Below, piece by piece: positions 324 to 2,146 of a stretch of 5,864 nt of DNA (position 1 is its first letter; every line of letters starts with the position of its first letter). The DNA comes from a virus (Duplodnaviria; Heunggongvirae; Uroviricota; Caudoviricetes). The notes under the pieces are model-generated. The model did no database searches, was not told the DNA's origin, and saw only the letters and a list, made by a program, of their open reading frames with translations. Made by a program: the position numbers and the translations under genes. The stretch lies in IMG/VR virus record IMGVR_UViG_2778261567_000003, one strand, 5' to 3'.

Positions 324-743
324 ATGAAAATGCAGATACAGCAGGAAATCAATGTTCTCCACAGCTTTCGTGAGTTTAACAACAATGACTGTGAGGTTCG
401 TGATTATATCTATGAATTGATGAACGGTGACGGTGTGTGTTTTCTGTTTATCGACCTGTATCAATGGTATGCAGACCAGCAGTGTGAATCTGTCCGGCAG
501 CGTTTTGATTATGAGTGCTTTGATGTGGACGTATGGGAAGGCCTGCGTTTTGGTTTTCTGATCCCGGGTGATTATCGCCGGGAGTGGCGACATAGTTACT
601 CCATTCTTCGGGCAATCATGCGTGGCGAAACCCGAAAAATGCCGGGGATGGGTAAGGTTAATCGCGGCCTCCTGTTAGAGATAGCAGCGGCGCACATGAA
701 TCCATTACTGATACAACCGGAGTTTACTTATGAATTTGTTTGA
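324..743 (+). CDS. hypothetical protein (139 aa)
   Basis: ATG at 324 preceded by GAGAGG at 313..318; aromatic/acidic-rich translation; its 3' end overlaps the next start by 14 nt. Confidence 0.6.
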   Translation: MKMQIQQEINVLHSFREFNNNDCEVRDYIYELMNGDGVCFLFIDLYQWYADQQCESVRQRFDYECFDVDVWEGLRFGFLIPGDYRREWRHSYSILRAIMRGETRKMPGMGKVNRGLLLEIAAAHMNPLLIQPEFTYEFV

Positions 744-960
744 TTCACTGAATAACGCCCGTCGCCTGACCGAGCTTGCCGGTGCGGTACTGGAACGCAG
801 TAAGCGCTATCCGCAACGTTTTGCACTGAAAACCACGCCGCCGGTAGGCGAGGTTCAGGGGAGTGGTGAAGAAATTGAAATCACCGTTAAGACCAACGGC
901 CTGCGCCGCCGTGTGAAGGCCACCCGCATAAGCGGATGCACGGTTTACTGGGAAGTATGA
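730..960 (+). CDS. hypothetical protein (76 aa)
   Basis: ATG at 730 with GGAG at 719..722; start lies inside the 3' end of the previous gene (translational coupling). Confidence 0.55.
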   Translation: MNLFDSLNNARRLTELAGAVLERSKRYPQRFALKTTPPVGEVQGSGEEIEITVKTNGLRRRVKATRISGCTVYWEV

Positions 961-1034
961 AGTTACTTCATGGTTCGGCTCTGTCATCAGGCCAGACGCC
1001 GGGTCAGTTATCCGAACAAAACGAGGACCAGAGG

Positions 1035-1307
1035 ATGAGTAAAGTCGTACGCATTATTTTCGAATACAAGGAGCACGTTATCCATAAAAACGCTGATGGA
1101 ACAGTGCGCATGGGGGTAAGTCTGGACATACGTTCAACCGGGATAAAGCAGAAAGGTGATGGACCCGCCATGATTTTTGGGGTGGTTATGCTCGCGGAAA
1201 GCAGAGACTTTGCTGAACTTGTGGCAATGAAAGCCAGTGCGCTCATGAAAGATATGAGCATGCGTTCCGGGGTTATTAAAGGTAATGAATTTAATCAGCA
1301 GGGGTAA
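1035..1307 (+). CDS. hypothetical protein (90 aa), paralog 1 of a tandem pair
   Basis: ATG at 1035 with GAGGA at 1023..1027 (7-nt spacer). N-terminus MSKVVRIIFEYKEHV matches the N-terminus of the next gene (MSKVRVIFEFEHV), which supports this start over the in-frame ATG at 957. Confidence 0.6.
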   Translation: MSKVVRIIFEYKEHVIHKNADGTVRMGVSLDIRSTGIKQKGDGPAMIFGVVMLAESRDFAELVAMKASALMKDMSMRSGVIKGNEFNQQG

Positions 1308-1311
1308 TTCC

Positions 1312-1605
1312 ATGAGCAAAGTACGCGTTATTTTTGAATTTGAGCATGTTTCGCATGACGAAAAACCGGCAGGCAATGACAGTGTTGAAGTGCATGAAAA
1401 GATTGGAGTGGATGTGAAAACAGAACGTGATACGGATAACAGGCCGACGTCACTCTGTGACGTTTATGCAAGCATTCTCCAGTATCACAGTCCTGTAATT
1501 ATTCAGTTTCTCTCAGCGGAATTTCAGGCATCTGTACAGGCTTTTGGGGCGGATGCCATCATTAAACGCCACCGTGTGCATAAAGCATCAGGCACACTGC
1601 AATAA
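1312..1605 (+). CDS. hypothetical protein (97 aa), paralog 2 of a tandem pair
   Basis: ATG at 1312, 4 nt after the stop of the previous gene, with a G-rich SD (GGGG 1301..1304). N-terminal similarity to 1035..1307 at both protein and DNA level. Confidence 0.6.
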   Translation: MSKVRVIFEFEHVSHDEKPAGNDSVEVHEKIGVDVKTERDTDNRPTSLCDVYASILQYHSPVIIQFLSAEFQASVQAFGADAIIKRHRVHKASGTLQ

Positions 1606-1615
1606 GGAAAACAAA

Positions 1616-2146
1616 ATGGTTAAACGTGTTACAAAATTAAAGGCCGCAGCCGAGGCTGCACCGCAGACCCGCGAAGAAGTCAGCCGCGATATCCGCACCC
1701 TGGGCGATATTCAGCGAGAGGCGCTGCGCCTGGAAACGGCAATGAATGATGAAGTGGCAGAAATCACCGCCCGTTATACGCCGCAGATTGAAAACCTTAA
1801 AAAAGAAATCAAAGTGCTTTTTAAAGGGATTCATGACTGGTGTAAAACCAACCGCAATGAGCTGACGAACGGCGGCGAAACCAAAACTGCCAATCTGACC
1901 ACCGGAACGGTGTCATGGCGGCTGGGAAATCCATCATGCAGCGTCAGTCGTGATGTGGAAGGTGTGATTGAAATGCTGCGTCGTATGGGGCTTGAGCGCT
2001 TCATCCGCACGAAAGAGGAAGTGAATAAGCAAGCTGTCCTGGCAGAGCCGGATGCGGTGAAAGGGATTGCTGGTATTAAGGTGAATAAAGGCGCTGAAAG
2101 TTTTCATGTCGAGCCTTTTGAACAGGACGCCGGACTGAATAAATAA
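1616..2146 (+). CDS. gam: Mu Gam-like host-nuclease inhibitor (Ku-like DNA-end-binding protein), 176 aa
   Basis: ATG at 1616 with AAGGA at 1604..1608. The translation shares long collinear motifs with phage Mu Gam as I recall it (LGDIQREAxRLETxMND, NRxELTNGG, KTANLxTGxVSWR, GLxRFIRTK, PFEQxAG) and is almost the same length (Mu Gam is about 174 aa). Recognition is from memory, not a database hit. Confidence 0.88.
   Translation: MVKRVTKLKAAAEAAPQTREEVSRDIRTLGDIQREALRLETAMNDEVAEITARYTPQIENLKKEIKVLFKGIHDWCKTNRNELTNGGETKTANLTTGTVSWRLGNPSCSVSRDVEGVIEMLRRMGLERFIRTKEEVNKQAVLAEPDAVKGIAGIKVNKGAESFHVEPFEQDAGLNK

What the first reader, a model, noticed from the sequence alone, without database searches (positions are those of the whole stretch)
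1035..1605. Tandem diverged paralogous small genes immediately upstream of gam
Seen in sequence: two adjacent ORFs (90 and 97 aa) begin with near-identical N-termini (MSKVVRIIFEYKEHV vs MSKVRVIFEFEHV), and the first ~50 nt are also similar at the DNA level (atgagtaaagtcgtacgcattattttcgaatac... vs atgagcaaagtacgcgttatttttgaatttgag...). They then diverge completely. This looks like duplication followed by rapid divergence, a pattern often associated with genes under diversifying selection, for example ones that engage host targets.
Basis: seen in the sequence. Interest (0 to 1): 0.5.

Follow-up and report, generated by a model that had tools for sequence, protein, structure and literature searches.

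The report
Diverged tandem paralogs upstream of gam
Two small neighbouring genes in the early region of a Mu-like E. coli prophage are real, intact, anciently diverged copies of one gene family of unknown function, whose only characterised possible relative is phage Mu's E6/Gnarl2 protein, which alters the host O-antigen; this is a modest, fairly ordinary finding that can be tested.

Summary
ORF A (1035-1307, 90 aa) and ORF B (1312-1605, 97 aa) lie 4 nt apart, directly upstream of gam. They share an N-terminus (12/17 aa) and 25/28 nt at the 5' end.

The similarity goes beyond that stretch:
- A B-family profile containing no A sequences scores A at 17.9 bits (0/4845 shuffles).
- It still aligns collinearly without A's first 17 residues (p about 0.002).
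- hhalign aligns 66 columns (E 3.9e-6).
- Both predicted structures have a long beta-hairpin followed by helices.

B is probably the ancestral copy. It occurs alone in the same position in Salmonella, Serratia and a few E. coli prophages. A is an extra copy seen only in E. coli, and it is basic (pI 9.5) where B is acidic (pI 6.0).

Both genes are intact in nearly all of about 45 loci, and both have Shine-Dalgarno sites. dN/dS is 0.29 for A and 0.35 for B, against 0.08-0.09 for kil and gam. That indicates relaxed purifying selection, not gene-wide positive selection.

The short 5' repeat coincides with copy-number variation. One B-only prophage has an A-like first 18 nt joined to a B body.

Function is unknown. 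Weak sequence similarity, the same secondary-structure order and synteny point to Mu E6/Gnarl2.

The parts
730..960 (+). kil homologue, the upstream neighbour in the early operon
   Evidence: phrog_2679 'Kil protein', 3.2e-39. Pfam Kil_protein is recorded on the orthologues.
968..1038 (+). Remnant 3' end of a deleted 93-aa gene (X93, phrog_1518). It forms the kil-A spacer and carries A's ribosome-binding site.
   Evidence: Global alignment with the O157-type locus L001 shows that about 206 bp of X93 are missing and its last ~70 nt are retained. Most E. coli relatives have the 206-bp longer version.
1023..1027 (+). Shine-Dalgarno-like GAGGA, 7-8 nt upstream of the ORF A start codon
   Evidence: Read from the sequence.
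1035..1307 (+). ORF A, 90 aa, basic (pI 9.5). It is the extra paralogue, seen only in E. coli.
   Evidence: phrog_4107, 1.1e-61. Intact in 38 surveyed loci. dN/dS 0.29. pI.
1035..1065 (+). 5' direct repeat, copy 1 (ATGAGTAAAGTCGTACGCATTATTTTCGAAT)
   Evidence: 25/28 identical to copy 2 with a 3-nt gap; 0/2000 shuffles reach it.
1300..1304 (+). Shine-Dalgarno-like AGGGG for ORF B, lying inside the last codons of ORF A. A's stop codon and B's start codon are 4 nt apart.
   Evidence: Read from the sequence.
1312..1605 (+). ORF B, 97 aa, acidic (pI 6.0). It is the syntenic, probably ancestral copy.
   Evidence: phrog_2230, 2.5e-39. A single copy sits in the same position in Salmonella and Serratia Mu-like prophages. 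dN/dS 0.35. AF2 pLDDT 83.
1312..1339 (+). 5' direct repeat, copy 2 (ATGAGCAAAGTACGCGTTATTTTTGAAT)
   Evidence: The STEC299 B-only prophage has its A-like to B-like junction inside this repeat.
1616..2146 (+). gam (host-nuclease inhibitor), the downstream neighbour
   Evidence: PF07352, 2.1e-39. 54% identical to Mu Gam.

Best explanation
ORF A and ORF B are two functional, anciently diverged tandem paralogues. They belong to one family of small (about 90-97 aa) accessory proteins encoded in the early operon of Mu-like transposable prophages of Enterobacterales.

Shown here:
- Both genes are intact and conserved.
- Each has its own Shine-Dalgarno site.
- They are 4 nt apart, with no + strand promoter or terminator motif near them.
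- They are homologous over at least the first two thirds of their length.
- Both are predicted to form a long two-stranded beta-hairpin followed by helices that, in the confident B model, account for residues 48-77.

Inferred:
- B is the ancestral gene, because it is found alone at this position in Salmonella, Serratia and some E. coli prophages.
- A arose in the lineage infecting E. coli by tandem duplication, or by unequal recombination at the conserved 5' end.
- A then evolved faster and changed charge (pI 9.5 against 6.0).
- The two conserved 28-31-nt 5' ends now act as short direct repeats at which the A copy can be lost or gained.

Most likely mode of action (about 0.3-0.35 on its own): the proteins are non-enzymatic binders of host proteins and work like phage Mu E6/Gnarl2. 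That protein is the only characterised candidate relative. It lowers the O-antigen ladder of wild E. coli through an unidentified host target. The two paralogues would then address different host targets or variants, or act as a pair.
For: Paralogy:
- BLASTP N-terminus, E 8e-4.
- Shuffle tests on protein and DNA.
- hhalign gives 33 columns at E 1.4e-5 with the narrow B profile, and 66 columns at E 3.9e-6 once Salmonella and Serratia B-type sequences are added.
- A B-only HMM scores A at 17.9 bits, 0/4845 shuffles. Without A residues 1-17 it scores 5.4 bits, collinear, 9/4744 shuffles.
- AF2 for B: pLDDT 83, E4-21, E24-39, H48-58, H60-77. AF2 for A: same order of elements but pLDDT 55.

Both genes are functional:
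- A-B-gam is intact in 38 of 40 viral contigs, and the A+B region is present in 232 of 5426 complete E. coli genomes (at least 80% of it in 226).
- dN/dS is 0.29 and 0.35.
- Both have Shine-Dalgarno sites.
- No + strand promoter or terminator motif lies nearby.

B as the ancestral copy:
- Salmonella has kil-(X93)-B-DUF3164/Gam, Serratia has kil-B-gam, and E. coli CI5, L037 and STEC299 have B only.

The repeat as a recombination site:
- The STEC299 gene has A-type upstream sequence and A's first 18 nt, including A's extra codon, followed by a B body.

Link to Gnarl2:
- Mu E6 hits B's PHROG, phrog_2230, over its full length at E 0.009.
- The combined A+B HMM scores E6 at 6.9 bits, 17/5000 shuffles, collinear.
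- The E6-family HMM scores the divergent A member P0080 at 9.1 bits, 3/5000 shuffles.
- The authors' AF2 model of E6 has strand 1-13, strand 18-32, helix 38-51 and helix 52-67, the same order as B.
- E6 lies between kil and gam in Mu.
- Gnarl2 phenotype: bioRxiv 10.1101/2023.04.06.535777 and PMC12373910.
Against: - Pairwise identity outside the N-terminus is only 13-20%.
- The last third of the proteins cannot be aligned with confidence.
- The A model has low confidence, pLDDT 55.
- The MSA used for the B model included A sequences.
- A's N-terminus resembles the co-resident E. coli B much more than it resembles Salmonella B (BLOSUM score 45 against 19-26). The rest of A is equally distant from all B types. 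The striking N-terminal identity may therefore partly reflect gene conversion or a recombination joint, not retained ancestry.
- The sequence link to Mu E6 is not significant by standard criteria: BLASTP E 7, or no hit; hhalign E 0.016 with probability 2.8%; the A-only and B-only HMMs give p about 0.2.
- Nothing here tests function.
Confidence: 0.6

Rival explanations
1. A and B are unrelated genes that share only a short 5' module. The common roughly 30 nt (about 12 aa) would be a recombination joint or gene-conversion tract, of the kind that lets phage gene cassettes be swapped, and not a relic of duplication.
For: A's N-terminus is specifically like that of its E. coli neighbour B, and much less like Salmonella B. 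Recombinant junctions lie exactly in this tract. Another B-only phage joins A-type upstream DNA directly to a B-type start. BLASTP sees nothing beyond residue 17.
Against: The B-family HMM still aligns A collinearly after A's first 17 residues are removed (p about 0.002). hhalign extends to 66 columns. The proteins have the same size and the same predicted order of hairpin and helices.
Confidence: 0.13
2. The pair is under diversifying (positive) selection in an arms race with a host target.
For: A and B vary far more than their neighbours: A 79-100% and B 60-100% amino-acid identity, against 91-100% for kil and gam. dN/dS is 3-4 times that of kil and gam. Windows at the hairpin tip of A (residues 16-30, 0.90) and at the C-termini (about 1.0-1.1) approach neutrality. 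B-type alleles within Salmonella are only 32-44% identical to one another.
Against: Gene-wide dN/dS is 0.29 and 0.35. No window clearly exceeds 1. The pattern is what relaxed constraint on loops and tails would give. Alleles reassort by recombination, which inflates apparent divergence. No site model was run.
Confidence: 0.2
3. A and B act together as a heterodimer. The duplication would have turned a homodimer paired through its hairpins into an obligate basic/acidic pair.
For: The charges are opposite, pI 9.5 against 6.0. The 4-nt spacing, with B's Shine-Dalgarno site inside A, suggests coupled translation. A was never seen without B in about 45 loci. A long exposed beta-hairpin is a typical pairing element.
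Against: B occurs and is conserved without A in many prophages. A and B alleles reassort freely, which argues against tight co-adaptation. No complex prediction could be run.
Confidence: 0.2
4. The N-terminal resemblance is chance, or one copy is a decaying pseudogene.
For: Rare frameshifted or truncated variants, and one A/B fusion, exist (P0030, P0036, P0038, P0056, P0061, P0062).
Against: Shuffle tests. Both ORFs are intact in almost all loci, and dN/dS is well below 1. The intact B cluster has 777 member sequences on 436 contigs.
Confidence: 0.02

Closest known systems
Phage Mu E6 / Mup07 = Gnarl2 (NP_050611.1; phrog_10252)
   Same: - Similar size: 87 aa against 90 and 97 aa.
- Located in the early operon between kil and gam.
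- N-terminus M-[AS]-K-V followed by an alternating hydrophobic strand.
- The authors' AF2 model has the same order of long hairpin and two helices.
- Weak collinear profile matches.
- Acidic, like B.
   Different: - The sequence similarity is not statistically secure.
- The hairpin is shorter (13+15 residues against 18+16).
- Mu has one copy, and other genes (E7, E8) lie between it and gam.
- The Gnarl2 phenotype, an O-antigen downshift and sensitisation to T5 (PMC12373910), has not been tested for A or B.
PHROG families phrog_4107 (A) and phrog_2230 (B), both 'unknown function'
   Same: A and B are clear members: 1.1e-61 and 2.5e-39, over the full length.
   Different: PHROGs keeps them as separate families. 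The evidence here joins them into one superfamily.
Other small early 'host-takeover' proteins of transposable phages. From my own knowledge, not tested here: Mu Kil (cell division block), Mu Gam (DNA-end protection), Pseudomonas D3112 Tip and DMS3 Aqs1 (bind PilB/LasR).
   Same: Small, non-essential early genes clustered after transposase B. They are variable between related phages and act by binding host proteins.
   Different: No sequence or fold relationship to any of them was found.

Membership tests
Tandem paralogues (one protein superfamily) | Significant similarity between the two families beyond a short shared motif | tested here: met
   hhalign aligns 66 columns, E 3.9e-6, probability 87%. 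The B-only HMM scores A at 17.9 bits (0/4845 shuffles). A residues 18-90 alone score 5.4 bits (9/4744 shuffles), collinear.
Tandem paralogues (one protein superfamily) | Same fold | tested here: inconclusive
   Secondary-structure order is the same: B has E4-21, E24-39, H48-58, H60-77 at pLDDT 83; A has E4-18, E24-38, H57-73 at pLDDT 55. The models could not be superposed, and the A model is unreliable.
Tandem paralogues (one protein superfamily) | Both copies intact and under selection | tested here: met
   Both are intact in 38 of 40 viral loci. dN/dS is 0.29 and 0.35. Both have Shine-Dalgarno sites.
Gnarl2 (Mu E6/Mup07) | Significant sequence similarity to NP_050611.1 or its family | tested here: inconclusive
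   - BLASTP E 7, or no hit.
- phrog_2230 against E6, E 0.009.
- hhalign E 0.016, probability 2.8%.
- A+B HMM 6.9 bits, p 0.003; A-only and B-only HMMs not significant.
- E6 HMM against P0080: 9.1 bits, p 6e-4 before correcting for 30 tests.
Gnarl2 (Mu E6/Mup07) | Same fold as the E6 model | tested here: inconclusive
   The order and approximate lengths of hairpin and helices agree, from C-alpha coordinates read in the paper's supplement. No superposition was possible. BFVD Foldseek returned no significant hit.
Gnarl2 (Mu E6/Mup07) | Early-operon position between kil and gam in a Mu-like phage | tested here: met
   No locus carrying A or B also had an E6 match.
Gnarl2 (Mu E6/Mup07) | Expression lowers the O-antigen ladder and sensitises wild E. 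coli to T5 | not testable with these tools
   The phenotype is defined in PMC12373910. It needs wet-lab work.
Genes under diversifying selection | dN/dS above 1 gene-wide or at defined sites | tested here: not met
   Gene-wide dN/dS is 0.29 and 0.35. The highest 15-codon windows are 0.9-1.1. Site models were not available.
Known anti-defence, defence or other curated families | Match to Pfam, NCBIfam, PADLOC, PDB sequences or Rfam | tested here: not met
   There were no hits above threshold.

The most novel reading that the evidence does not exclude
A, B and Mu E6/Gnarl2 form one fast-evolving superfamily of hairpin-helix proteins with which transposable phages remodel the host O-antigen or envelope, without any enzyme of their own. 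In this reading, the tandem duplication in E. coli prophages (including the Mu-like prophage common in O157 and other STEC strains) produced a basic and an acidic paralogue. These would hit different host targets or serotype-specific variants, or work as a heterodimer. The conserved 5' ends would act as a built-in recombination site that lets copies be shuffled, lost or gained.
Probability: 0.25. Interest if true: 0.6.

Novelty: new member of a known kind. Interest (0 to 1): 0.38.

Why it matters
The early 'semi-essential' region of Mu-like phages is full of small genes of unknown function that manipulate the host. This analysis does three things:
- It joins two 'unknown' PHROG families into one superfamily.
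- It shows which copy is probably ancestral.
- It gives a concrete hypothesis: an action on the O-antigen or envelope like that of Gnarl2, whose own host target is still unknown.

The prophage is present in about 4% of complete E. coli genomes, many of them O157:H7 and other STEC strains. An effect on O-antigen would therefore bear on serotyping, phage susceptibility and superinfection exclusion.

If the Gnarl2 link fails, this is an ordinary case of duplication and divergence in a phage accessory region.

Tried and rejected
- The genome-contig scan with the window's Gam gave only two distant, uninformative loci. The patterns from a single protein were too specific.
- tblastn of A and B against 50,697 phage records found only two Stx-phage records that carry an inserted Mu-like element.
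- Pfam, NCBIfam, PADLOC, PDB sequence search and Rfam gave no meaningful hit.
- AF2 of A with its shallow family alignment gave pLDDT 55. I use it only for secondary-structure order.
- The full-library HMM search with the B family found only 11 cluster representatives. All are B-type, and none is A or E6 at library-wide significance.
- Searches for more distant E6 relatives, to bridge the families, found only proteins at least 70% identical to E6.
- Rejected: that the extra 93-aa gene in O157-type relatives, and the 90-aa gene preceding B in Salmonella, are third paralogues. They belong to phrog_1518 and are unrelated.
- Rejected: chance similarity and pseudogene status.

Full report
**Context**

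The window is the early ('semi-essential') region of a Mu-like transposable prophage of E. coli. It is 95% identical to a 'Mu-like phage' segment inserted in Stx-phage records. The 900-2200 stretch occurs in 232 of 5426 complete E. coli genomes, many of them O157:H7 or other STEC strains.

The genes on the + strand are:
- a phrog_3375 gene (84-311);
- a homologue of Mu E7 (324-743);
- kil (730-960);
- ORF A (1035-1307);
- ORF B (1312-1605);
- gam (1616-2146);
- then DUF5420, Gp11_C, a Gp12-like gene and an HTH protein.

No + strand promoter or terminator motif lies around A and B, and no Rfam family matches. Both genes therefore sit inside the long early transcript. Each has its own Shine-Dalgarno-like site: GAGGA 7-8 nt before A, and AGGGG 7 nt before B. 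B's site lies inside A's last codons, and A's stop and B's start are 4 nt apart.

**Checking the observation**

- BLASTP aligns only residues 1-17 of A with 1-15 of B (12/17 identical, E 8e-4).
- The Smith-Waterman score of 45 is reached by 10 of 5000 shuffles of B. No other protein pair in the window scores as high.
- At the DNA level the first 31 nt of A and 28 nt of B are 25/28 identical with one codon-sized gap. None of 2000 shuffles reaches this.
- Beyond about nt 31 the DNA similarity is gone, so 'about 50 nt' overstates it.

**Homology beyond the N-terminus**

Homologues of each protein found by word-indexed search are all from E. coli and at least 68% identical. The first profile comparison was therefore shallow: 33 columns, E 1.4e-5.

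An exhaustive HMM search of 1.84 billion representatives with the B family added five distant B-type clusters, 25-34% identical to E. coli B in the later alignment. Three are from Salmonella enterica (P0065, P0068, P0069), one is from Serratia (P0070) and one has no named source (P0067).

With these added, hhalign aligns A residues 1-66 with B 2-71 (E 3.9e-6, probability 87%).

An HMM built from B-type sequences only scores A at 17.9 bits over positions 1-78. The best of 4845 shuffles scores 8.9. With A's first 17 residues removed, the rest still aligns collinearly (HMM 29-78 with A 26-74) at 5.4 bits, reached by 9 of 4744 shuffles.

Motifs shared with distant B members include GVSLDIRSTGI / GISVRVRSQGL and a following G-P.

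AF2 gave a confident model for B using the combined 30-sequence alignment: pLDDT 83, pTM 0.67, a long hairpin E4-21/E24-39, then H48-58 and H60-77. The A model has the same order of elements but only pLDDT 55.

I conclude that A and B are true paralogues (about 0.85). The C-terminal third remains unalignable.

**Which copy is older**

In Salmonella Mu-like prophages a single B-type gene lies after kil, or after kil plus a 90-aa phrog_1518-type gene. It lies before DUF3164 or Gam. In Serratia the order is kil-B-gam.

In E. coli, 38 of 40 viral contigs carry A-B-gam. Three E. coli prophages have B only: CI5, L037 and STEC299. A was never seen without B.

A is 13-20% identical to every B type, whereas B types are 25-60% identical to each other. 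B is thus the syntenic, probably ancestral gene. A is an extra copy in the E. coli lineage that either evolved much faster or is older than its distribution suggests. A is basic (pI 9.5). B, Salmonella B and Mu E6 are acidic (pI 5.5-6.0).

**The shared 5' end as a recombination site**

A's first 12 residues are much closer to the co-resident E. coli B (BLOSUM score 43-45) than to Salmonella or Serratia B (19-26). The rest of A is equally far from all of them.

In STEC299 the single gene has A-type upstream DNA and A's first 18 nt, including A's extra codon. It then switches to B sequence within GTACGC. In CI5, A-type upstream DNA is joined to a B-type start at the ATG.

These are the products expected if A is lost, or gained, by recombination between the two short direct repeats. 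They could equally be ancestral single-copy forms. I cannot tell which. Either way the conspicuous N-terminal identity may be partly maintained by recombination or conversion, and not simply left over from the duplication.

**Selection**

Across about 40 loci, NG86 dN/dS (ratio of mean dN to mean dS) is:

| Gene | dN/dS |
|---|---|
| A | 0.29 |
| B | 0.35 |
| kil | 0.08 |
| gam | 0.09 |
| gp11 | 0.16 |
| the 84-311 gene | 0.25 |

Sliding windows show strong constraint on the N-terminal strand of A and on the helices of both proteins (0.10-0.28). B's first 15 codons are less constrained (0.41). Values approach neutrality only at A's hairpin tip (0.9) and at the C-terminal tails (1.0-1.1).

A alleles (79-100% identity) and B alleles (two classes, about 95% and about 61%) reassort independently, while kil and gam stay at 91-100%.

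This is relaxed purifying selection with recombination. Gene-wide diversifying selection is not demonstrated. Site models could not be run.

**Function**

No curated family, defence or anti-defence model, solved structure or viral predicted structure matches.

The one lead is phage Mu E6/Mup07 (87 aa), which lies between kil and gam in Mu. In a screen of phage accessory genes this protein (orf63, NP_050611.1) was named Gnarl2. Its expression shifts the O-antigen ladder downwards in wild E. coli and sensitises them 10^5-10^6-fold to T5. Its target was not identified (bioRxiv 10.1101/2023.04.06.535777; Nat Commun 2025, PMC12373910).

Evidence that A and B are related to it:
- E6 hits B's PHROG over its full length at E 0.009.
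- E6 is the top-scoring Mu early protein with all three of my HMMs.
- The A+B HMM scores E6 at 6.9 bits, collinear, with 17/5000 shuffles reaching it.
- The E6-family HMM scores the divergent A member P0080 at 9.1 bits, 3/5000 shuffles, before correcting for 30 tests.
- The authors' AF2 model of E6, read from its C-alpha coordinates, has strand 1-13, strand 18-32, helix 38-51 and helix 52-67 running back along the hairpin. This is the same order as in B.

Evidence against:
- BLASTP finds nothing.
- hhalign gives E 0.016 at 2.8% probability.
- The single-family HMMs are not significant.
- No bridging sequences were found.

I put homology with Gnarl2 at about 0.5-0.6, and a Gnarl-like effect on the envelope at about 0.3.

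**Verdict**

The diversifying-selection reading is not supported as stated.

The finding is a new, duplicated member of the class of small early accessory genes of Mu-like phages. It has a testable but unproven link to Gnarl2. Interest is moderate.

Noticed in passing
window 961-1038; L001 3063-3344: The kil-A spacer in the window is the remnant of a deleted gene. Most E. coli relatives carry a 93-aa gene here (phrog_1518, annotated 'host nuclease inhibitor'). About 206 bp of it are missing in the window, and its last ~70 nt are kept, including A's ribosome-binding site.
   Followed up: yes
window 957-1307: An in-frame ATG at 957 overlaps the kil stop codon (ATGA) and would give a 116-aa extended form of A; some gene callers use this start (P0001). 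The same in-frame spacer precedes B in strain CI5. The extension varies mostly by non-synonymous changes, so it is probably not coding.
   Followed up: partly
P0036 (E. coli contig; corresponds to window ~1035-1180 joined to ~1550-1605): A natural A/B fusion protein of 67 aa. It was created by a deletion between the 8-nt microhomology ttttgggg in A (AMIFG) and in B (QAFG).
   Followed up: partly
L046-L052 versus L053-L054 (Salmonella), position equivalent to window 1616-2146: In many Salmonella Mu-like prophages a 212-aa DUF3164 protein occupies the slot taken by Gam. Others have Gam plus an extra 182-aa gene. This is an alternative-gene polymorphism at the gam position.
   Followed up: no
window 324-743 and 730-960: The homologue of Mu E7 (139 aa) overlaps the kil start by 14 nt. 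It is present in only some relatives, and the gene order differs from Mu, where E7 lies after E6. The early region is mosaic.
   Followed up: partly
P0056, P0061, P0062 (variants of window 1312-1605): Rare frameshifted B variants of 103 aa switch to the +1 frame and read through to the gam start region. They come from only one or two contigs each, so they are sporadic pseudogenes or sequencing errors.
   Followed up: no
L029 2476-2996; L043 2017-2649: Two viral contigs appear to lack a separate kil gene, or have it fused to the upstream gene, directly before A. This is further structural variation just upstream of the pair.
   Followed up: no
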